Source: Lama glama (taxonomy: Eukaryota). From it: a DNA stretch of 64,000 nt. Location of the stretch: assembly GCA_028534125.1 (NCBI GenBank), contig CM052816.1, forward strand, positions 61,568,001 to 61,632,000, in the 5' to 3' direction. Positions 7,102 to 60,747 of the stretch are shown one piece after another; position 1 is the first letter of the stretch; the number at the start of each line of letters is the position of its first letter. Below the pieces are notes generated by a model. That model saw nothing but the letters and a program-made list of their open reading frames with translations. It made no database searches and was not told where the DNA came from. Position numbers and translations under genes: made by a program.

Positions 7102-7254
<153 letters not shown>

Positions 7255-7889
7255 TAAGTAATCTCTGGAGAGTGATGATGAATTGCTCCAGAAGCAAGCC
7301 ACTGATAGAAGCCTAGTATGTAGTGCTTTAAACTTTGCATAATGAGTAAGTTTTATAGGGCCCAGTGATATTTCAGGCTGTTCCCAAAATACTTTAATAT
7401 ATCATTGTGGCAAAGGTTTTCCTTCATACTCAAACAGAACACAAACTTAACAGATTAGAGGAACTGGAGCTAGGTTATAAGAGGGGTTGATGATGTGAGT
7501 GTTAGAAATGTTCAATAAATGGGAAGCAATGTCATAAGAATTTAGATTTACATAATTTAATAAATAGAGCATAAGCCAAACTTTAATTCAGTGATTGCAT
7601 ATTTCATTTTGTTGTTAAAAAACTGAGTTCTATAGGAAGGCCAAAGTATCTAATAGTAACAAACAACAACAACAAAAAAATCAAACACCCAGGAAATGAA
7701 CATGAGAAAATGAAAATTTGTCTTTGAAAATTTATTAAGTGACTAATCTTTTCTACAGTTTGGGAACTTCTTTGCTGGTCCCATAATCTATATTCCAAGC
7801 ATCTGGTTGTTTAAATATGAAGAATATAAATTAGCTCAGATATAACTATGTTTAGGAAAGCAGATGTTCTTCCACTTCTCACCTGCATA

Positions 7890-8115
7890 GCATAGGGCTT
7901 CAGGATTGAACTTCAGAAACTGATCGACTTATGTCACACTTTCTAACTGTGTGACATATAACTTTACCTTTCTAATCATCAGTGACTCCATTTGTTAAAT
8001 GAGTTTAGGTAATAATACACACATTATCTGGTTGTTATATAACTAATTATGTGTAATGCTATAATTTATAAAAAACACTTAATAGACATTTCATTAAATG
8101 GTAAATATTATTATT
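7890..8115 (+). mobile_element. MIR SINE (degenerate)
   Basis: ctaactgtgtgac...tcagtgactccatttgttaaatgag...cacttaatagacatttcattaaatggta. Confidence 0.55.
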
Positions 8116-9986
8116 TTAAATAGTATCAAGGTTTCAAGCTTTATTACTCTATCATTACCTTCAGCTGTTTTGTGCCATTTTTTTCTTGGGGAGAAGAGAT
8201 GAAATACTCTGTGAAAAAGTGAGTTATATATAAACAGGTGAGCAACAGAAGTTCTCTTTAAAAATTGTCTTTGTTCAAGTTCACCTTAACATGATTGTAA
8301 TGTAAAATTTTAAAAATTCAGATAGGTTATATAGTATAACATTATTCACTAAAATTCTGGTTTATATCTGCTAATAGCCAGATCGTATTCTGAAAACTTA
8401 TAATTACATATTTTTAAAAGCCCCAAGCAAGAGATTTTAAATTACCTAGCACAAATGCTTTGCTCAAAGATCAAAAGATAAATGTTTAAAATGGGCTCGT
8501 TTGAATTAATTACTGTATTAGTGAAACTGAAGGAATTTGAAATTTATTTTAGGATGTAACTCTTCTGAATAACCATACTATAACCAACAACTTTTGATCT
8601 TAGTAATAGATAAATTATAACACTGTACTTGATTAGTGCCAAAACTGAGTGAAGGGCTGTTAAGATAGATAGACCGCAGAGAATTTGTTTGACATCTTTT
8701 GGTAGTTTTTAACACAAAGCACTAGCAATATCATTTTCTAATATGTTTTTAACATGATCATATTACTTAAATTTTAAACATTGTTGAAGATCTGCTCTCC
8801 CCAGAAGTCAAGCCAGATCTGGAATTTCTCCCTTGACTTGGCTCATGTTTTTATAATGGAATCTTAGTGTCCATCATATGCATGCTCAGTACTTCTGCGC
8901 ATTTTCAAAGGCTTTCCTCCTTTTTTTTTTTTTTTCCAAGTACCATTTCTCTCTCCTCTGTCCTATTTGTTAGGACTGTCTCTGTATACTGTGTACTAGG
9001 ACAAACTGTGATCTCTTGCCAGACCCTGCCTAGTTGAAACAGTATTATTAAGACCATTAAAACACTCCAAAGGGGAATCCCTAAATTGCTGATAAAATAC
9101 AGTTAAGAAATCACCACTGGTTTGGTGAGAGATGTAAAATTATTACTAGTTGCAATAAACTGTTCCGTTGAATTAATTGAAAGAATTAATCCAAAAAGCA
9201 TTATGTAAGCCTTATTGCCTCTTTGCATTTTCTACGTGTAAGCATGATTAGTGTTGACAGGGTTCTAATGGGCTTATTTATCCGGTATTTTATCAAAATG
9301 TTTCTCTTGTGTGTCCTCCTGGGAATGCTCATAAAGTTAAAACAATTAGTAAAAGATAGATGTGAAAGACAATGGGTAGAGATTTGGGAGAAGATTGGGT
9401 ATTTTTCCCCCCTCTCTAATAGAAAACTAAACAACTTTGATTATAATCTGACCAAGCAATAAAAGTTTTTTAAACACAAGGCCCTTTAAAAAGGTCAGTT
9501 CACTGGAGCACAAAGACATAAGAGTAATTTTCTTGTATTTCTTTGTTCCTTTTTCTTAATGCAGTGGACTTAATTGCTTTAACAGCTATGTGTGATATTT
9601 TTAAAAACCCTGTGATATTTTGATCAGGATTGAGGTTACATTTATGTTTTATAGTTGGCTCAAAAAGACTCATAACATTTTATTCTAGTTTCTCTTCTCA
9701 AGAAAAAAGAAATCTTGAAAGATTAATTGTTTAGGAACTGCAGCCCAGCCAACAAAATGCATACTTTTCTCTACTTAGTGACTGTATACGCCAAAGATGA
9801 TGGTGGATTTTAACAATGAGTTTCCTATGATTTATAGAGATTCACTATTCACTATGTTCAACTGAAAACAATTCCATGGCCTTTAAATGCCAATAGAGTA
9901 AAAAGTCTCTCATGTCATTCTGAAACACTAGGTGCTATTGATCAGTCAGGAGATGGTGTTTACCAACTCCCAATATTTTTTTTCAG

Positions 9987-10122
9987 ATTTCTTAAACTCG
10001 GTGATTCAATAAGTGGTTCATGAATCGCCCCGAAGCCGTCCTGATTAAATAATAAAGAACCCATTTCCGTTTAAATGGACGTGTTATGCCAGCTTCTGAT
10101 GTTTTCGACGACGGCTTTGCAG
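9987..10122 (+). other. ADAMTS6: Candidate alternative (poison cassette or terminal) exon of ADAMTS6 with in-frame stop
   Basis: Strong acceptor atattttttttcag| and possible donor cag|gtagtg. Splicing from 7253 gives (E)FLKLGDSISGS* with TGA at 10021-10023. AATAAA at 10051-10056. Local CpG enrichment in non-repeat sequence. Confidence 0.55.
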
Positions 10123-12029
10123 GTAGTGTCCTTCCTATCTGCCTGCGGGACTTACTTATTTATTATTTATTTATTTAGAAATTATAGAAAGATGAACCTG
10201 GTATGATGGCTCACACTCACTGATGTCTATGGGCTAATTTACCAGGCAGTGGAAGGCAGCCAGAAGTAATGTAGGCCAGTTTTTCATACATTTTCCACCA
10301 CTTAGTGGTAGTACAGAGTAATTTCATATAGTCTTCAAAAATTCTGGGGCCTCTGTGAATCAACTCTTGTTCTATTTAAATTAAAGTCTGTTAAATTGTT
10401 TGAACTGTCAGAGATCTATAGCAAAATTTCCTGCAGTTCCAAATTAAATACAGATTAGCTATTTTCACAGATAGAATGGATGCTAAAAAGAGACAGTTAT
10501 AGTTGATGATGAACTAGGAAGAAAGGTGAGCGTAGAATTCAAAAGAAGTGATAAAAGATGAACAGGATTACCAAGACACTAACAGATCCTCTGTAGCAAT
10601 TACCTTTGAAGATCAATATCGATAATCTATTAGAAAACATTTTATAGATGAGGTTGCCTTTTTTATGGGGAACCCAAGAAACAGCTTAGCAGAACAGATT
10701 TCTCCTCCTTCTATTATGTGATATGTTTTGGGGACTTCACTCTAACCATAAATATTTTTGGTAGGTTGTAATTACATATGGAGAAAAAGAGCATAACTTA
10801 GTAAACATTATCAGTATAGTGTTTGTGTATTGAAAGCCTCAAGTTGAATTGTATTCAGGTACACAGAGGGCAAGAGAGAAAGGTCTGACTTAGAATGACT
10901 CATTTTAGAAGGTAATATATTATTAGTTTTGTAAAGATTGATGGAGCAGTTTATGAGAATGTAGACACTTGATTTGCCATAGATAATACAACATAGTTCA
11001 TTTTTACTTAATTTAGATATATTAGCACAATTTTGTGGGAAAAAGTAGGAGATAGTATTATCTATTAACTTTTTGTTGTTGTTGTTAAGAGACTGTTAAG
11101 ATATGTACAAGGTTATATAGAAAGATTTATTTCTTAAATTGACCTACTGTGTTGTAGACTAAAAGTCTGTACTTTATAGTATAATTGTTTAAGTGAAAAA
11201 TAAATCTTAAATTACAATTAGGAGTACATCTGTATGTATTCTGGAAACAAAGCCAAGAGAGCATATTTTACATAGAGATCTGTAAATTTTAGTTGAAGAC
11301 TCAATTCTGGCGCATGTTCCTATTTTCAAGGCTAATTTTTGAGCTATGTAAATAAGAATTTTCTAAATTAGAAGTAGAATACATAAAATATGACTTTGCT
11401 ATCATGCTGCAAAGATTTCTGGAAATGTAAATATACTTTGATTTACTAAGAATATAATCGAGGGAAACACATATTCTTAAACTAATATACATCTTTTTGC
11501 CTTGTCTTAGAAGTGTAAACAAAAGTAGAGTGTATTAATTCAGTAATTATCTATATTGCTGTAGGTATTAACTAGGATTGGGCTTTTAGTTGTGAAACAT
11601 ATGCTGCCAAGGAAATAATCATACTTCCGCTTTTTGTATATACAGTTTTCCACAGGACAAGTATATCTATGCCTAACAATAGTAAGTTGTAATAGCATCT
11701 CATAGATGGAAACTACAGTGTTTCTCATTTCATTTATTAATGAGTGAGGTTTATGATTTCTGAGTGAAAAAATTCACATATTATACAAACCAGCTATGCT
11801 TAAAAGTGGCATTTAATGAGAAAATTCAAGAAGACCTATATATAATATTACCCCAATTATTTTTAAAATAGTAGCATAAATAACACTAGGCTCAGCATCA
11901 TAAGAATTGTATACTTATATTGATTGACTAGAAACCTAGATTAAATAAAAATTACCCATAGATTCCATTTTGTTAAAAGAAAACAATTGTAAAATAAAAG
12001 ACAATACCTTATATCTAATATTTTTGAGA

Positions 12030-12530
12030 AAAGAAAAGCATTTGTACCAGAAGACTATACAAAAATGTTTATATCAGCATAATTTGCAATTTCCAGAAAT
12101 TAGAAATAATTTGCATGTTCATTAATAGAAGAATGAATAAATAACTGTGGCACAGTCTTAAATGGAATATCAAAGGACAGTATAAATAAACAGCTAACAG
12201 TTATTCTCATTAACATGGGTATATCTCACACTCATAGTAGTGAGCAAAATAATGTCAAAAAAAAAAAAAACCTTTCAGCATGTCTCCTTTATATAGAGTC
12301 CAAAAACAAGCAGATAATTACTAAGAAGACCAAGGGAATTATTATTTAAAAAATCATAATATTAGTTACTTCTTGAAGAGATAGAAAGGGATGTGATTGG
12401 GGTATGCACTTAGAAATTTTCTAAGGGGAAAAAAACAAAGAAAAGCACTTCGAGGGTTAAATATATATTTCTTGGATTCATGTCCTCAACCTTCTATACG
12501 TATATCTGTGATATTTCATAATGGTAAATA
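12030..12530 (+). mobile_element. Old L1 (L1ME-like) 3' end
   Basis: aaaaatgtttatatcagcataatttgcaat...aatagaagaatgaataaataactgtgg...acatgggtatatctcaca. Confidence 0.6.
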
Positions 12531-15341
12531 ATGATGCAGAGGCATGAGAATATCTGGAATTATCTTCTAAGAGTTAATTAATAGTTGTGATCTATAGATC
12601 TAACTTACATGAAAGTAGCAGGAAAGTAGCAAATTTAATAACATTATGGGGAAAGTATTTTTGTAGCTTAACCCTCAGTTAAGAATTAAAGTATGAAAAT
12701 TGCCTCACTCCTCCACCCCAAACACTTTAATCAAAGTTTTTACTGTACATAATGTATATGGTTACTGGGAGGAAATAGGTAGTACATTTTCTACCCAAAA
12801 TGTAGAACCAATTTACATCAGCCTTGCAAATATCCCATACTTGCTTTCCCAGAGCCAATACTAGTAGGTAAGTCACTTGCAAACATTGGTAATTTGTACA
12901 AATACAACCAAATCCATTTTAAAAGGTCTTTGTTGATGCCATATTCCTAAATATGTATTCATTATTTAAAGATCTATATGATTTTTCACTTACATTGTGT
13001 TTCATGTAGTGTTTTATTCTATAAAAATATACTGGAAAAGAGAATGAGACGTTTCTAGATATTTAATTAGACCACATTAATACAAAGCAATAGGTACTTC
13101 CAAAGAATTGAGACACAAATCACTTTTGAGATAAACTTTCTTAGAAAAATTTGTCCACAGGTGACCACAGTGCATGGCATTCTTTGTTGTCTGAAGTTTC
13201 CTGCAATGGTCATCTGATTTGATATTTTTTAAGGATCATGAACCATGACTTGAAGACCACTAATGCCTGGAAACAAGAACTTTAAATGAAGTAATTATTG
13301 TTGCTTCCTCCTAAGTTAAGCCAATTTTCAGTTTGCTACAAGAAAGAACTTTTGCCTCAGTGTATCTGTTCTTAAACTCTTTTTTGAGGTCCACATATTT
13401 CTAAATTTTTAGGTTAATTTTCTGTATTCCTAAAAGTAATTGTGTCTAATAATTTTTAATCGACTTTGAGTTGGTGCCACTTAGTTGAATATATCTTATA
13501 CTTTCTTTTGTTACTCTTTGGACAGATATTCTGCCTATAGGATTCTGTGCTTAAGTAATTCAGGAAATTTAAAATTCTCCCATTGATTTATAGTAGTGCT
13601 TAGCTTTATATTTTTTTGTTATATACTTAGCTCCCTTCATAGAAACTTTTATCATTTTTTTGTAGATAGAGGTAAAACTAATATTTCAGAAGGGAAATTA
13701 GGAAAGTAAACTACTAATGCAATGATCTCATAAATTCTTTTTTCATTATACTTTTCACATTGCCCTCTTTATCATTAACCTTAATATAGAATTTTGAATT
13801 TACTAGTAGAATTGCACTTGCCTAAAATTTGTATACCCATATGAAGATATTTTACATAATAAAATAGAACTTTCTAATTTAAAAATTCAACTAAAATAAT
13901 TTTTCTTATTGAGTTACACATCAATTTCTAAAAGTACAGTAAGCAAAATAAAAAGCATTCTGTCATGAAATCTAGATAGCTGGGTAAAATAAAGTTGTTC
14001 TCTATTAGTTAGACACCTTGAGCAGGGACAAGTGAAATGATAATAGTCAATATAACATCTATCTATTCAGTACATTTAATATTCCATCTGATTATTTTTA
14101 TTGATTAAAAAATTAATCAAGAGGGACATAAATGAAAGAAAAAGGGCATAAATATTTTGTCCCTTGGGTCTTTGAATCTATCACCTTATTAATAGTATGG
14201 TTCAATTTTTAAAAGGTATGAATTTGCTACTGTGTAAATATATATTTTCATGTAACAAATTAACTTTTGCATTTTAAGGATATGATAAAATTTTAACTGC
14301 ATATGAAACTCATTATTATGCATGGTTCTTTCTTACTTATCTATAAATGAAAATTTGTACTGTCCTAAATAATAGTTGAGGAACTTCTACTTGTGAAATT
14401 ATTTTGCTTTGGCAAAGTGGATGGAAAAGATTTGGAAAAAAAAACACAAGTGCTGGCACAATTGACAGGAATGTTGGAAAAAATTTTTAAATGTTGGCAT
14501 AGGAATTCTTTAAAAATTCTAACTTACTCACATGTGAAATGAAAGTAAAAAAGCATCTGTCCTATTTTATGCACACTGGCTAAATAAAAATGAACAATTA
14601 TATTTAGCAAAGTATAAAGCTCTTTAAACTAAGGTATTCTGTCTGGCTTTTGGCGATCTTTATGTTATTTGTTCCACTGAATTAAAATATTATGTTTGAG
14701 TGCAAGCATACTTTGAAAAGCAGAAATTATAAAGAGAAGAGAACATTCTCTTTTCCAACTCTGATGACCCTAGATGAAATATGAAATATTTGAGAGACTA
14801 AACACTTCTAATATACTGGAGAGGAGAACTTTGGATCTTGGCCTCATCTATCATTCAGCCCATTTGTTATTGAAATATTTCAAGAACCTTTGGACATGTC
14901 TTACCAGAGTATCTATTGTTCTGCCCAAGATGGAAGTATATAGATTAGGTCTTTAAGGATTACAACCACAAATTTTTTTTCACATTTTGTGTTTTTGATT
15001 CTACTACCAGATGTGGTTATATTTTCACTGAAAACAAACAAGAAGCTGAGAGCAATATGAAAATGTTTTGATTCTTTAAGAAATTAGTTTAAATCAGTGT
15101 TTAAAGGCCAACATGACATTTTTAGGTTGTTTTGTGAGATTCTTTTATTGTGTCTTGGTGCTGGAAAAAACTATTGGAGCTCTTATTTAAATTTTAGTAA
15201 AGCAATTCTGTTTTGCCATATGTGTTTTTTTTTTTTGTAGAAAGTATTGTTTTTCATGCATCAATTATTAAAACAAAGAGCTTAACACATGGTTTCATAA
15301 TTGTGATTGAAACAGTGCATAGTGTACCTAATTTCCTTTGA

Positions 15342-15524
<183 letters not shown>

Positions 15525-17896
15525 TAATTATTTATATGTGTGGTTATGACACAGCTTTCAAGATGCAATTTTGATGAATGTACTCTGGTAACATCATTAA
15601 CACAAATACGGCCTTTGACACTGCTCTTTTTCTGGTATCATTTATATAAAATTTATTATACAAATATTTACTTCTAAATGTTTGAGTAATCAAGTAAAAC
15701 AAGTTTCAAATGTCTTGTGAAGGATGCAGGTAGAATTTTTAATGTTTCTAATTATTTCTTTTTTAAGTTCTGATTTTCTGATGCCAACTTTTTGTTTGTC
15801 TTAGAAATGTTATAATTTTGAAACCTCCCCCTACTCCCCGCCTTTTCTGGTACTCTAATAATTGGATTAAGGGCATTTTTAACATTGGCTAGGAGCCTTT
15901 AATTTATACTTTTAGTATTGAGTAATTTCAAGTTACTTTATCCACTGACCACATTCTAACGTAATAACTGAGTGGGGATAAGGTGACATTAACCCAAATA
16001 CAGAAACAAGGAAAAGTGCTATGGAAAAAAAATGAAGGTATTATAACTGACTCTTCTCATCTGCCTAAAAAAGTCTCAGTGTCTATCTCAGAAAATGTAA
16101 AAAAAGAAAAAAACAGTTCCATAGAGAAAGATTTCAGAGTCTAGTATAGAGAGATGTTCATAGTAGGTACACAGTATAAGCATGTTGAATGAAAGAGTCA
16201 CATTTTAAAATGACAAGTTGTTTGTCAAAATAATTCAGATTTTAAAAAGTAAATTTAAGGCTTAGTTTCTATTTTTATGTAAATAGTGTGTTTAAGATCC
16301 CTTTTTAAAAATAATAACAATAAAAAGAATAAAGTTTTAAGGTAGTTAAGACCAAACAATATATACATTGTACTGTACCAGTTATTCCTCTTGGGTGCAG
16401 TACAAAGGAAAGTGATGTTTTAAATAGCCCTTAGTGACAAGTATATTATTATTCCTGGTAGGGTTTGGCAGCACATTTTGTGCACTAGATTTAAAGATTG
16501 TGTGCAACCATCTGAAAATCTAGAGCTTTGAGTAAAACTTTGGCATTTCTTGTCTCTCTGTAAAGAGTCTTTACTTCTATTCTTGTTTCTGTATAGTTTT
16601 AGTTTCTTTTTTACCTTGGGTTGCTTTTTGCCTCAGAAAAAGTCAGTCAAACTTTAACCACAGTCTTTGATATACTTATAGCTTACTGAGTTGAAATTCA
16701 TGATCAACTGAGTTTACAGATTTTCTGTTAGATTTATTCTTACCTATGGTCTCTCATTTCTTTGTTAGCAAGTAAAAAAGTTCATCTACATTTCAGTTTT
16801 TCTATGGGGAATTGGGTTTAACTCCACCGGTACATTTCCCTATTAGATAGTTTATACTATCAGTTTTGCAGGATCTCTGGATGTTTTTTTTCCTTCAGTA
16901 AATTAATTAAAAATTTGACCTGATTTTTCTGTCTCAATATCTGTATATCTCACTCATTTCAAACTAGCTGGTTTGAAGTGCAATAAATAATTGATAAACT
17001 GTACATTTTCATTCTATGATCCTTATGTGCAGTTTTTAGATTCTATTTTTGTGTTATGTTTATAAAGATTTTTATAATAGTTGTAAAATGAAATTAGAAA
17101 ACTTGGGGAAAGATTTTAGCATCTTACAACCCTATACAATTTCATATATTTTATTATGAATTTTTTTGCATCTACAATCCTATATAATTTCATATTCTTT
17201 CTGGTGAATATTTTTCACTTTGATTTGTAACAAAATGGTTTCCTTAAACTTATGTACTATATGAAAATGCTTTTGCTACTTTTTTATAAAGTGCTATACA
17301 TTACTAACAGTTTCTTGGGTCATAACAGATTCTTTATAACCACTCCCACCTCTTACGCTTGTGCCTGAAGAGTTGAGTTTACACAATTGATAGCGCACAC
17401 CAAAACTCGTGGGCTTTATCTGGATTATCCCTAAGGTTATAAATTATTCTAAATGGTACTTGAGAAAACAATAGTGGCTTTGGAGGTGAAAGTTCAGTCA
17501 GGTAAACAAATCATGCTTCAGATCATAGTTGAAGGGAAAAACAAACCAGTACTGATTTAGATAGCTACCTGAGTGTAGCATCCTGAGATGAACACTAAAA
17601 TATAAGTAGTGGAGTTTTAAAAGAGCACGTAGCCTTTTATGGAGGAGATACTTCTGATGTTAAAGCATCATGAAATGATCCTCTTTCAACTATCAGGGAA
17701 GATTTTAAACAGTGATCTACAGGATGACCCATAACTGCAGCAGTGATCAGCTTTCCATCTCTTCTACTTTGGTCCCCATGTGGTCATTGTGGGGATTAAC
17801 AGTGATTACATCTGTAGTTATGAAAAATCTTGCCTTAATTCTTTGTAAGTACGTTCAGTAATATACATTTTAGATACATTTGGAAATTTAATTTAC

Positions 17897-22500: not shown

Positions 22501-23765
22501 TAAAAGGCATGGGATTATTTTAACACATCAGTATACTTTTGGAGTCCAGACATATATATTTATCAGGCATATACTCGACAAGAAGTTGATTTGACTTTTT
22601 TTCCTTAAATTTCAAGCCAAAATCTTAAGTTCATAATCATTTATATTCTTAGAGATCAGTAGTTTTTACTCTGGGTTTGCTTCTTAGAAGTATTTTTTAA
22701 AAACCTTTTAATAATTTTTAACCCCTTCAAATTGATGATTAGTTATTTAATCTGAATTTCTAGATTAGTTTTTATTTATATATGTATTATATCTGTGTAT
22801 ATATAATACATATATAACAAAAATATGTATAAAACTTTTTTTTTTGCCTTTCTAGGATCTCTTATACTTAAATTACCCACATAACAGGATTAACCTATTT
22901 AAAGCTGAAATAAGGGTACATTATTCTCTTTCTTCAGATGGCTACCCAACACCTGGAGCCAGGCCACAGGGTCACCATATGTTGGTTTTCAATTTTCCTT
23001 TGTGTGATACAATGATAAGTAACCTTTCTAATCACTGATGCTCCTTCTTGACCTCTTCAGTGCTCCGCTCTCCCCCTTGGCTGTCACGATCCTTTATTGC
23101 AAACAGCTGTTGAAAGATGTTACTGATAGGATAATGAGGATGAAGAGAATGTTTCATATCCACAACCAAGGACCCAAGATGGCATAGGGTTTAGGGTTTC
23201 CCAAGGGCAGAAAATCTGTGTGAATCTCTATTGATCTTTACAATTGTTTAAAAAAATTAAAAAACAAAAACCATCTAGCAATAAAGATGCCATTTTCCCT
23301 TCATATACTGTTTTATTTCCTTAATATAGCAATTATAAAGTGGTTTTGTACTTTTATGATATCACTTTCCCCCTTATGTAAACTGCTAATTTTAATTTTT
23401 TCAGGTAAATCTAAGAGCTTGTCTTCCCAGTTTTCAGTATCATTTAACAGCTACAGTTACTTTAAAAAGGATGGAAACATTAGAAAAAATAGTTCCAATT
23501 TCTTTTATTTTCTTGAAAGGGTCTTTTACTGTAATCAATTATTTTATTCTGATCAAAGGAGCCCTAGTTCAATTCTTTACAATGTTATTTTCTTAATATA
23601 AGTTTTATACTAATTACTTTTATTTTATACTAGATAATTAATTTAAAACTCCACTCTCTCTGTATATTTTTATTATGATTCATACTTGCTAATATTTTTT
23701 ATTGCTGTTAATGTTTGAAAGTTAAATAGACTAGAAATCTGGGAGTTGATATTAATTTTAAATAA

Positions 23766-23808
23766 TTTTAAACTATTCCTACTTTAAATAAGTAGGAATA
23801 GTTTAAAA
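23766..23808. repeat. Perfect 19-bp inverted repeat with 5-nt spacer
   Basis: ttttaaactattcctactt-taaat-aagtaggaatagtttaaaa; the arms are exact reverse complements. Confidence 0.95.
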
Positions 23809-24129
23809 GTCTTGTATTTTGGAAAACCATGTAATACTTTTGAGGAGTATATTAACACTATTTTTATGTGGTGTTGTTACATTCAGAAGTTCCAATAATG
23901 TATGAGTTGATGCCTAAGCTCATACATTGAATGAATATGTTATGAATTAGTACGTAATAGTCTTAATTTTGAGATATCGTCCTTTAAAATACAGGTAAAG
24001 GGTAAGAAGATATTAAGAACATTTAGTGGGATTTTGTATTATATTAGAATGCAAGTAAACCTTTACTAATCAGCCTTAATTGGCCAGTGACTTTATTCAA
24101 TTCTGATACATTTAAGAAAAATGGAAAAG

Positions 24130-31082: not shown

Positions 31083-31217
<135 letters not shown>

Positions 31218-37528: not shown

Positions 37529-39829
37529 AGAAAATACAACACTAAAAACTCTCACCTTTATTGTGCTTACTGGATTTATATACTTCAAGTTGCTTTATTT
37601 GGTATAGTCTAATTATATTATGACTTTTGCACATTAATATCTTAGTATATATTGACTAATATAATCCTCTAGAAATTAGCTCAAATAACTTGATCCACAT
37701 GAATTTCTCTATAGACTTCTTAAAGCACATATTATGAAGTTTCTTTAACTTACTTAACTTTATTTACCTTATAAATAAGTTTCTTCTCTTAAAACCATGT
37801 ACTACATCAAGATACTTCGTACTACTACTACTACTGCAGGAGAGAAGTAGAAAAATCCCAGAGAGATTCTTTTCTATAAATACAAGATAAGGGGAAACTA
37901 AATAAGCACAGAAGAACATTGTGCCAGAGAGAAGTTAAACAAGTCCTTTGATAGATTTTTAACTTCTTTGAAGGTATGTTTGCATAGAGCTAATTTCTTA
38001 AGTCATCCTAATCCAACTATATTATAATTGAAAACTAAAGGTAGTCCCCATTTTATAGTTAGAGAAACTAAAGAAAAGGAACAAATGACTTTCTTTGGAC
38101 CAAAAAAAGATATTGCTATAATGAGAACTCAAGTTTGTAACACAGACTACACACAGACTGAAGTTGTCCCTACACAGACTAAGTTGTTAATTAGTTGTTA
38201 AACTAGACGCTAATCTCTTGTCAGCTGCTAGATGGCTGATACTTATATTATCGTTATGAATTCTTCATTCTTTACCCATTAATCTGTGTTATTTAACTTT
38301 CTGATATAATTGTCTATTATGTTATAACTCCATGGAATAGATATAATCAGTATCATGAATTTATGCAGTAGAAGGTTTTAGCCAACCACTCATGAAATAT
38401 TATTGTCTTGTAGATGTTAATTAATTGTAAGAAATGAGCAACATTTAACAGACTGAATATTTGTATTTATCTTTTACCTTAAGAATAAGTTTTAAAAGGA
38501 AAACAAGAAAATTTGTGTAATTTCTTTCCCTGTTCTACATGTTGTGAGCATGCAGGAAACGTATAACAATATTATTAAATACTTTAGAATCTGTATCTTT
38601 CAATATTTTTGTGGCTTTCACAATTTCGTCCCCTGAAAAAATGCAGAAAGTGAAATTTTTTCTCTACCAATTATAAGAATACTTAAGGAAGTATGAAATA
38701 GCCCGTGGGTGTATATTTGCAGCTAAATGGGTTTAAAAAAAAAACCTCTAGTGTTATTTTGTACTTTATGTAGTAAATACAGTTCAGTAAAGTATATTAG
38801 AGTATTTTTTAATGTCTTCAAATGTATAATCCTACACCTCCAGTTGATGTTTTCCACTGATTTTTGTGTATGTTTGGACAGATAATCCTTTTCTGCCAGT
38901 GAGTGGCCCTGGGCAAGTCAACCTCCTTCAGGTTCTGGTTTCCTTATTTGAAAAAATGAAATGCTTAGATCCCATAAATACTAGAGTCCCTTTGACTTGA
39001 AGTGCTGCTCTGCGATGATATAAAATAAATGTTAAGTTAAATTTATTGTTATTTGAAATCAATAATGCTAAAAATTCTAACTTAAAAAAAAAACAGGCAG
39101 ATTTTAAGATTTGGAATTTTTAGTGTTAATTGTCACTAATTGAAACCAAAGAAAAAAAATCAGTAATTGCTGGTTAATACTACATTGCTCAGTTACTCTT
39201 ATAGGAAAATAGGTGCAGGCATAAATATTCTTATGCACAGCTATTTGTAATAATAAAAATGAAAATCAGGAGATTATTTGATCCACCACTGTGAGTTTAT
39301 ATAAGTGAAGGTCTGACACAATTAGCATATCATTATACAGATGGTTGGTCTTCAAGATCAATTCAAGGTAAATCATAAGCTGGCAACTGGAATGTTCTCT
39401 TCCTCTCACACGTGCACTATTAGCAACCCTACTCTCAGAGCTGATACTGTATTATCGGTTCAGCTAACTACCTCAGCTTTATCATCTTGGACAGCTGATT
39501 TTTTTTCTTAGTGGTAATTTTCATTGTCCAAAATTCATAAACTTTTTAAAAGTCCTACTTTAATATTTATTTTATTTAGGATCAAAATGTTTGGCTTTAT
39601 AGCCAGCCACATTTTGACTTCCTCTTGCCTGATTTTTTTATGGACAAATGTTAATTGCTCAGCACTTCTGTAAAAAAAGTCCTTTATACTGTTACAATTA
39701 CTGAAATAGTCACTGAATGCCAACCACCAGGAAAACAAAGATAAATTTGACTTTCTTTACCCTCTAGTATCTCCAGTTCCTTCCTGACATATAGTAACCA
39801 AAATAAGACACAGAATTCTATAATTTAAC

Positions 39830-40720
39830 TAATTATTCATTCATTCAATAAAGTTTTGTTGCATATTTATTATATTTTAGGCACTGTTCTAGACATTCAG
39901 CATTTCTAATTAGAACATTCTGTGATGATAGAAATGTTCTATATCTACTCTGTCCAATGTTGTGGCCACCAACCACATGTGGCCATGGAGCCATAGAAAT
40001 GTGGCTCGTGGGTCTGAGGAACTGAACTTTTAATTTTAATTAATTTAAATTTGAATAGCCATGTGTGCCTCTCAAGGCTTTTGCATACTAAGTAGAGGAG
40101 ACAATAAAAGTAATAAAGAAGTAATTTGAAAAATAAACAGAGTAAAGTAGTAGTAAGTAGTAAGAGGGGACCGAAACAGGAAGATGAATCTCTGTATATC
40201 CTGGAATGGGCAGGAAGGATAGTGCAGTACCATAGTTTCAGAATAAGGATGGTCAAGGAAAGACCTCTCTGATGAAGTGACACTTGACCTGAAACCAAAT
40301 GACGGGAAGACAACAATATGAGGAATCAGAAGAGGAGTCTTCCCAGGAGGACTAGCAAATGCAAATATCCTAAGGACAGAACAAGGTTAGTGTACTGAGG
40401 AAGAGAAAGGTCACTGTGTCTGGAGCATTCCATACAAGAGAGAATAAGTTCAGGGAAGGAGGTAGGCGCTAGATCACAAAGGCCACAGTTGAACATAGTT
40501 GAGGGAAGGAGGTAACCACCAGTCTTTTAAGCAAAACAGCAAAACAGTGACATGAAGCAATAGTATGTTTTTAAAAGAGCTCTCTGAGAGGTTACTGGAG
40601 AATAGACTGATTATAGGCAGAAGAAAGTGAGGCGGGAGGACCAGGTAAGAAGCTATTCCATTTGCCAGTTTAGTCTAGAGTGGTAGCAGTACAGACGGTG
40701 AAAGTGACAGAATTGTAGAT
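39830..40720 (-). mobile_element. L2 LINE 3' part, interrupted by MER3
   Basis: Starts attcattcattcaataaa...ttaggcactgttctagaca and continues with purine-rich ggatggtcaaggaaagacctctctgatgaagtgaca... Confidence 0.75.
39905..40070. mobile_element. MER3-like hAT-Charlie MITE
   Basis: tagaacattctgtgatgatagaaatgttctatatct...ccacatgtggcc...gaggaactgaacttttaattt...tttaaatttgaatagcca. Confidence 0.8.

Positions 40721-41736: not shown

Positions 41737-41910
<174 letters not shown>

Positions 41911-43967: not shown

Positions 43968-44120
<153 letters not shown>

Positions 44121-60636: not shown

Positions 60637-60747
<111 letters not shown>

What the first reader, a model, noticed from the sequence alone, without database searches (positions are those of the whole stretch)
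9975..10130. Hidden stop-containing exon that would cut ADAMTS6 off at the end of its catalytic domain
Seen: 2.7 kb after the Met-turn exon there is a strong acceptor (T-tract + CAG, ending at 9986), a phase-compatible frame giving ...ITSFL-EFLKLGDSISGS-stop (TGA 10021-10023), ATTAAA at 10044 and AATAAA at 10051, and a possible donor CAG|GTAGTG at 10122/10123 (136-nt exon). About ten CpGs sit in roughly 160 bp of an otherwise CpG-poor intron, and the block does not resemble a repeat. Established: premature stops upstream of further exon junctions trigger NMD, and intronic poly(A) use yields truncated isoforms. Inference: a constrained dual-use exon that acts either as an NMD poison cassette or as a terminal exon. 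The terminal-exon product would lack all ancillary domains and the final catalytic-domain Cys (GTCLDN). It may already be annotated as a short isoform in other mammals; I cannot check that here.
Basis: partly seen in the sequence, partly recalled or inferred. Interest (0 to 1): 0.72.

Follow-up and report, generated by a model that had tools for sequence, protein, structure and literature searches.

The report
Known conserved ADAMTS6 stop-codon exon
This intron holds a real 136-base exon with an early stop codon, whose peptide ends a listed human and mouse short form of the protease ADAMTS6; it likely lowers protease output by sending the message for decay, so it is a known kind of brake and not a new find.

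Summary
In detail: acceptor at 9986, exon 9987-10122 (136 nt), in-frame TGA at 10021-10023 lying 99 nt before the donor, two poly(A) hexamers and 9 CpGs. It is not hidden. The predicted C-terminus ends human ADAMTS6 'Isoform 3' (468 aa) and mouse, bat and vole entries, and unnamed contig-derived proteins read across the upstream junction. Lim et al. 2020 (PMC7347940, Supplementary Data 2) list a 136-nt ADAMTS6 'EI_NMD' cassette at a collinear position in human RNA-seq. Best reading: a placental-conserved poison cassette that likely triggers NMD (0.75). Decay of this exon under UPF1 loss or cycloheximide was not seen in anything I read. Terminal-exon use is unproven: the hexamers are unusual for the GC content, but no 3'-end data were available. 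New here, and only predicted: four adjacent hairpins over the branch point, stop, hexamers and donor (z about -2.7 to -3.2; 7 of 348 control windows fold as well), with no covariation test. The scan's earlier notes held nothing on this exon. Verdict: already known, low interest.

The parts
7107..7253 (+). Upstream coding exon of ADAMTS6 (end of catalytic domain, Met-turn); donor GT at 7254
   Evidence: tblastn to ADAMTS6 proteins; donor position
9949..9970 (+). Predicted hairpin covering a candidate branch point (A at 9962, 24 nt before the acceptor; consensus recalled)
   Evidence: pair probabilities 0.87-1.0; prediction only
9976..9986 (+). Acceptor: eight T followed by CAG
   Evidence: sequence
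9987..10122 (+). 136-nt stop-containing cassette exon
   Evidence: same peptide in human isoform 3 and mouse; 136-nt human EI_NMD row
10021..10023 (+). In-frame TGA, 99 nt before the exon's donor
10000..10029 (+). Predicted 9-bp hairpin holding the stop codon in its 3' arm
   Evidence: pair probabilities 0.89-0.99; prediction only
10044..10056 (+). ATTAAA (10044) and AATAAA (10051), candidate poly(A) hexamers
   Evidence: both together in 0.5% of GC-matched 136-nt windows; use untested
10032..10118 (+). Predicted long imperfect stem (core 10032-10040 with 10110-10118) that encloses and partly pairs the hexamers
   Evidence: core pair probabilities 0.86-1.0, inner part 0.55-0.81; prediction only
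10119..10146 (+). Donor (GT at 10123) inside a predicted 8-bp hairpin
   Evidence: pair probabilities 0.83-0.86; prediction only
15359..15500 (+). Next coding exon (142 nt), carrying the last catalytic-domain Cys (SGRGTCLDN)

Best explanation
This is a 136-base cassette exon with an in-frame stop in the ADAMTS6 intron that follows the Met-turn exon, and its inclusion likely sends the message to nonsense-mediated decay and so would lower the amount of protease made. Shown: splice sites, frame, stop, the 99-nt distance to the next junction, the same peptide in several placental mammals, and a same-length human exon listed as NMD-inducing inclusion. Inferred: that the human row is this exon (length and spacing, no sequence alignment), that decay happens (50-nt rule), and that conservation reflects regulated inclusion. 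Predicted only: local hairpins over branch point and donor would keep the exon skipped by default, and their opening would raise inclusion.
For: Anatomy. 9 of 251 stored proteins end in the predicted tail: human 'Isoform 3' 468 aa, mouse A0A286YEC9, EDM10267 (rat by my recall of the accession series; the listing shows no species), Phyllostomus discolor KAF6122907 (one change, G to S), Myodes glareolus KAK7808913, and four unnamed contig-derived proteins, one seen on 22 contigs. The tail cannot be read off-frame from downstream coding sequence in any of 55 full-length proteins, while two control tails can (54 and 46 matches). Lim et al. 2020 Supplementary Data 2 row 314: ADAMTS6 chr5:65297108-65297244:- EI_NMD, 136 nt; three neighbouring distances are collinear with the window (5780 vs 5378, 17884 vs 15582, 2139 vs 2075). 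That list needed at least 3 junction read pairs, at least 3% PSI and an annotated NMD junction (passages). CpG observed/expected 1.5 against 0.13 for the window points to constraint.
Against: No exon-specific UPF1, SMG1 or cycloheximide result was found. The exon is absent from the supplements searched for Kovalak 2021 (PMC8091538, 2 files) and the factR2 paper (PMC11188260), and the only ADAMTS6 row in Mironov 2023 (PMC10123112) is a different event. No reads of this species were laid (one search returned no alignment). No DNA of another species was obtained (0 matches), so conservation of the non-coding 99 nt, donor, hexamers and stems is not shown. Bat and vole entries are genome annotations and may be projected from the human model.
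Confidence: 0.75

Rival explanations
1. Dual use: in some tissues the exon is cleaved and polyadenylated about 10-30 nt after the AATAAA, becomes terminal, escapes decay and yields the 468-aa propeptide-plus-catalytic-domain protein.
For: Two hexamers 7 nt apart after the stop; both occur together in 0.5% of 1246 GC-matched windows and 2.5% of 6387 windows overall. GU-rich sequence follows. The 12-residue tail is nearly invariant. NMD escape by intronic polyadenylation is documented for other poison exons (PMC13187750, abstract and section 17).
Against: The human exon is catalogued as a cassette with both junctions defined. ADAMTS is not named in the main text or the one supplementary file held of PMC13187750 (its 451-event list may not be in that file); 0 papers hold 'ADAMTS6' with 'intronic polyadenylation'. 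AATAAA alone is common here (15% of windows). The product would lose the Cys conserved in ADAMTS1, and solved catalytic-domain-only ADAMTS4/5 chains align to 12-18 residues beyond the junction; that this Cys closes a disulfide and flanks a calcium site is recalled, so the protein would likely misfold.
Confidence: 0.12
2. The block is constrained for another reason (an enhancer, a structured intronic RNA element or a decoy exon that governs retention of this intron), and the stop-containing isoform is a low-level by-product.
For: CpG retention fits an unmethylated regulatory DNA element as well as RNA stems. Contig-derived proteins ending ITSFLE-stop, the read-through into the intron, exist (P0139 on 5 contigs, P0147). 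An invariant peptide in a decayed transcript needs nucleotide-level constraint of some kind.
Against: The CpG-rich block begins and ends close to the two splice sites (9999-10146); folding is better on the sense strand (z -2.27) than antisense (z -0.66); inclusion reaches at least 3% in human tissue without NMD inhibition.
Confidence: 0.1
3. An exonised fragment of an ancient transposable element with no present function.
For: Hairpin-rich conserved intronic blocks are sometimes old repeat relics (recalled).
Against: One match in its own genome, itself; peptide nearly invariant between human, rodents, bat and this species, which neutral sequence would not keep.
Confidence: 0.03

Closest known systems
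Human ADAMTS6 'Isoform 3' (UniRef entry P0013, 468 aa) and mouse A0A286YEC9
   Same: Same junction residue and same 12-residue C-terminus, same position after ITSFL.
   Different: Nothing at protein level; this is the orthologous exon in another mammal. The entries do not show whether the transcript continues to the next exon.
ADAMTS6 EI_NMD event chr5:65297108-65297244 (hg38) in Lim et al. 2020, PMC7347940, Supplementary Data 2
   Same: 136 nt, same gene, collinear spacing; classed as NMD-inducing exon inclusion.
   Different: One catalogue row; no exon-specific validation, structure or poly(A) analysis seen in the passages read.
Poison exons with intronic poly(A) escape (VRK3, NFX1, TM2D3, DDX31; PMC13187750)
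   Same: Stop-containing cassette with poly(A) signals after the stop.
   Different: There the site lies in the downstream intron or extends the exon and has read support; here the hexamers are inside the cassette and no 3'-end data were seen.
Structure-controlled poison exons of BRD2/BRD3 (PMC10789245, search listing only; discussed in PMC11632617, passages)
   Same: RNA pairing proposed to set inclusion of a poison exon.
   Different: Those use conserved long-range intronic pairings that were tested; here the pairings are local, predicted from one sequence and untested.

Membership tests
Poison (NMD-inducing) cassette exon | Canonical AG and GT sites between two coding exons | tested here: met
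Poison (NMD-inducing) cassette exon | In-frame stop more than 50-55 nt before a downstream junction | tested here: met
   99 nt to its own donor, further exons follow
Poison (NMD-inducing) cassette exon | Inclusion seen in RNA | tested here: met
   Human catalogue row with read thresholds; contig-derived proteins across the upstream junction. Not shown for this species.
Poison (NMD-inducing) cassette exon | Included isoform stabilised by NMD inhibition | not testable with these tools
   No exon-specific result in searches or supplements 37, 41, 45, 66
Poison (NMD-inducing) cassette exon | Evolutionary conservation | tested here: met
   Peptide and stop kept in human, mouse, vole, bat entries; no non-mammal among the named proteins with the tail; DNA-level conservation not obtained
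Poison (NMD-inducing) cassette exon | Regulated inclusion (tissue or factor) | not testable with these tools
   No PSI values or regulator seen
Alternative terminal exon / NMD escape by intronic polyadenylation | Poly(A) hexamer downstream of the stop | tested here: met
Alternative terminal exon / NMD escape by intronic polyadenylation | 3'-end reads and excess of upstream over downstream junction reads | not testable with these tools
   No reads laid; no listing found
Conserved structured RNA element | Folding better than shuffles and than local background | tested here: inconclusive
   z -2.7 (2 of 300 shuffles); 7 of 348 other windows reach its z and 3 of 348 its energy; borders chosen after seeing the fold
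Conserved structured RNA element | Covariation across species | not testable with these tools
   No homologous DNA obtained
Rfam family | Match to a covariance model | tested here: not met
   0 matches at E<=5 in 9500-10600
Ultraconserved element (200 bp or more identical in human, mouse, rat; definition recalled) | Perfect DNA identity over 200 bp | not testable with these tools
   0 papers hold ADAMTS6 with 'ultraconserved'; no DNA alignment
Interspersed repeat | Multiple genomic copies | tested here: not met
   1 match in own genome, itself; very old diverged copies could be missed

The most novel reading that the evidence does not exclude
The exon is a structure-gated three-way switch: four adjacent hairpins hide the branch point, stop, poly(A) hexamers and donor, and opening them selects between skipping (full protease), inclusion (decay) and internal cleavage (a 468-aa propeptide-catalytic form that could act as an inhibitor), giving a matrix protease the kind of RNA-level control known mostly from RNA-binding proteins.
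Probability: 0.1. Interest if true: 0.55.

Novelty: already known. Interest (0 to 1): 0.18.

Why it matters
The exon and its isoform are already in protein databases and an NMD catalogue, so its existence is not news. It has modest practical value: ADAMTS6 loss causes heart defects in mice and rare variants are linked to prolonged QRS (PMC9627330, PMC7226509; passages), so a conserved unproductive exon is a candidate antisense target to raise ADAMTS6 and a place where deep-intronic variants could matter. I found no paper in the library that studies its regulation, structure or poly(A) use (subscription papers, including Bevitt et al. 2005, are not held).

Tried and rejected
Fish homologue: a fish-like contig protein (P0141) ends in a superficially similar short tail, but that tail is an off-frame reading of the canonical next exon (compatible in 54 of 55 full-length proteins), so it was rejected. 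Huntington-model Adamts6 skipped exons (PMC10617732; 2 of 3 rows of file 1 and 6 of 6 rows of file 2 seen) are 103, 124 and 146 nt, not this exon. Run index: 21 of 24 listed rows hold part of 9900-10250 and many sit at a share of 0.34, about what the exon alone would give, but none was laid on the sequence (one search returned no alignment), so I do not count this as evidence; junction use and 3' ends in this species stay open. Two metagenome scans gave 0 loci. Rfam gave 0. None of the 25 longest of 206 inverted repeats in 7300-15358 has an arm in the exon. Bevitt et al. 2005 (PMID 16129570), which likely first described these variants, is not held; I saw only its citation. No structure prediction of the truncated protein was run, as it would not separate the rivals. 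Earlier scan notes returned only poison exons of other genes.

Full report
Observation. The window carries the middle of a mammalian ADAMTS6 gene on the + strand: tblastn places coding exons near 7107-7253, 15359-15500, 31083-31190, 41764-41910, 43986-44048 and 60637-60739. In the intron after the first of these, an acceptor (eight T, then CAG) ends at 9986 and a GT donor starts at 10123, defining a 136-nt exon. Joined to the upstream exon it reads ...ITSFL-E-FLKLGDSISGS-stop, with TGA at 10021-10023, 99 nt before the donor. ATTAAA is at 10044 and AATAAA at 10051. Nine CpGs lie in 9975-10130 and a tenth at 10146, against 0.57 expected (P about 1e-8 uncorrected; CpG observed/expected 1.5 against 0.13 for the window); no other 160-nt window has more than 5. 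The block matches only itself in its own genome and no Rfam family.

What it is. A protein search with the upstream exon returned an entry named 'Isoform 3' of human ADAMTS6, 468 aa, which ends in exactly the predicted tail. Its cluster (91 members, 40 read, 15 listed) and a second cluster (16 members, 15 listed) add mouse A0A286YEC9, EDM10267 (rat by my recall of the accession series), the bat Phyllostomus discolor (one G-to-S change), the vole Myodes glareolus, and four unnamed contig-derived proteins, one seen on 22 contigs. In all, 9 of 251 stored proteins carry the tail. An open frame across this junction can only be read on spliced sequence, so the contig-derived ones are evidence that the upstream junction is used, in species not named. 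The tail is not an off-frame reading of downstream coding sequence (0 of 55 full-length proteins compatible; two control tails gave 54 and 46 matches). No named non-mammalian protein carries it, but NMD isoforms are often left out of protein sets, so depth beyond placental mammals is untested.

Prior record. Lim et al. 2020 (PMC7347940; I read passages and all 4 ADAMTS6 rows of Supplementary Data 2) list chr5:65297108-65297244:- as EI_NMD. It is 136 nt long, and with the paper's neighbouring ADAMTS6 rows it is collinear with the window: 5780 against 5378 nt to the next donor, 17884 against 15582 for the following intron, 10641 against 10826 and 2139 against 2075 further on. The identification rests on length and spacing, not on an alignment. 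Events in that list needed an annotated NMD junction (GENCODE 28 or RefSeq NR), at least 3 read pairs and at least 3% PSI in human tissue RNA-seq; 1985 of 2831 events assayed were validated with cycloheximide, and whether this one was among them is not stated in what I read. Against a prominent role: ADAMTS6 is absent from the supplements searched for PMC8091538 (2 files) and PMC11188260, and PMC10123112 lists only a different ADAMTS6 event. Reviews mention ADAMTS6 splice variants without function (PMC7226509, PMC8275829, PMC9627330; passages). Bevitt et al. 2005 is not held; 'ADAMTS6 variant 4' (AAW47399.1) appears in the same cluster, and that the 468-aa form is variant 3 of that series is my inference.

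How it most likely works. Skipping gives the full protease. Inclusion puts a stop 99 nt before a junction with many more junctions downstream, which by the established 50-nt rule marks the message for decay. Conservation of the peptide and retention of CpGs argue for selection at the nucleotide level. I put this poison-cassette reading at 0.75. Shown: anatomy, conservation of the coding part, inclusion in human RNA. Inferred: decay and regulated use. No reads were laid on this species' sequence (one search returned no alignment), so both junctions are untested here.

Structure. The sense strand folds better than shuffles (z -2.27, 7 of 200; antisense z -0.66). In context the prediction gives four adjacent hairpins: over a candidate branch point (9949-9970), over the stop (10000-10029), a long stem enclosing the hexamers (10032-10118) and over the donor (10119-10146), with pair probabilities of 0.83-1.0 in the cores. 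All ten CpGs touch a predicted pair, and two pairs of CpGs face each other, though this is partly circular because CpGs drive folding. As a control, 7 of 348 other 154-nt windows reach the element's z (-3.17 with 20 shuffles) and 3 of 348 its energy; 349 of 412 planned windows were finished. The borders were chosen after seeing the fold. The structure is thus a lead in the top 2-3% of the window, not a result; no homologous DNA was obtained for covariation (0 loci). One paper holds 'ADAMTS6', 'RNA secondary structure' and 'exon', and its listing is unrelated.

Terminal-exon rival. Both hexamers together occur in 0.5% of 1246 GC-matched and 2.5% of 6387 136-nt windows; AATAAA alone in 5% and 15%. 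NMD escape by intronic polyadenylation is real for other genes (PMC13187750; abstract, section 17 and passages), but ADAMTS is not named in its text or in the one supplementary file held, and no paper pairs ADAMTS6 with 'intronic polyadenylation'. The product would stop before the Cys that aligns with ADAMTS1 GECLMD, and solved catalytic-domain-only ADAMTS4/5 chains align to query residues 175-181, beyond the junction at 163. That this Cys forms a disulfide and borders a calcium site is recalled. A stable active enzyme is therefore unlikely. I give this rival 0.12, a by-product of another constraint 0.10, and a neutral repeat relic 0.03.

Verdict. A real, placental-conserved, already annotated stop-codon exon of ADAMTS6, most likely a poison cassette. 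Novelty: already known. Interest 0.18. The structure-gated three-way switch remains possible (0.1) and would deserve about 0.55.

Noticed in passing
window 60637-60739: This 103-nt exon, preceded by a 64-nt exon, matches in length and order the mouse Adamts6 exon whose skipping changes in Huntington knock-in striatum and neural progenitors (PMC10617732 supplements). Skipping it would shift the frame.
   Followed up: partly
upstream of the window (proteins P0121, P0123, P0131, P0134): A second truncated form of 292 aa ('ADAMTS6 variant 4') is shared by human, mouse (70 contigs), muntjac and green monkey entries; it likely corresponds to the alternative 3' splice-site NMD rows in PMC7347940 and PMC10123112. 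ADAMTS6 seems to have several conserved unproductive splicing routes.
   Followed up: partly
window 15359-15500: Two contig-derived proteins (P0141, P0149) end in short tails explained by alternative acceptors inside this exon, read off-frame.
   Followed up: yes
window 7253 to 41763 (proteins with EKCVES after ITSFL): 29 of 149 stored proteins from mammals, birds and reptiles continue EKCVES after ITSFL, which looks like models that skip the 142-nt and 108-nt exons; not checked further.
   Followed up: no
window 10300-10470: An AT-rich stretch 180 nt after the exon folds unusually well (z -3.41, 1 of 200 shuffles; lowest z of the window scan). Unexplained; could be a repeat relic.
   Followed up: partly
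window 17697-17850, 23703-24010, 39565-40026: Other intronic windows with low folding z (-3.6 to -5.3, 20 shuffles each), probably inverted-repeat elements.
   Followed up: no
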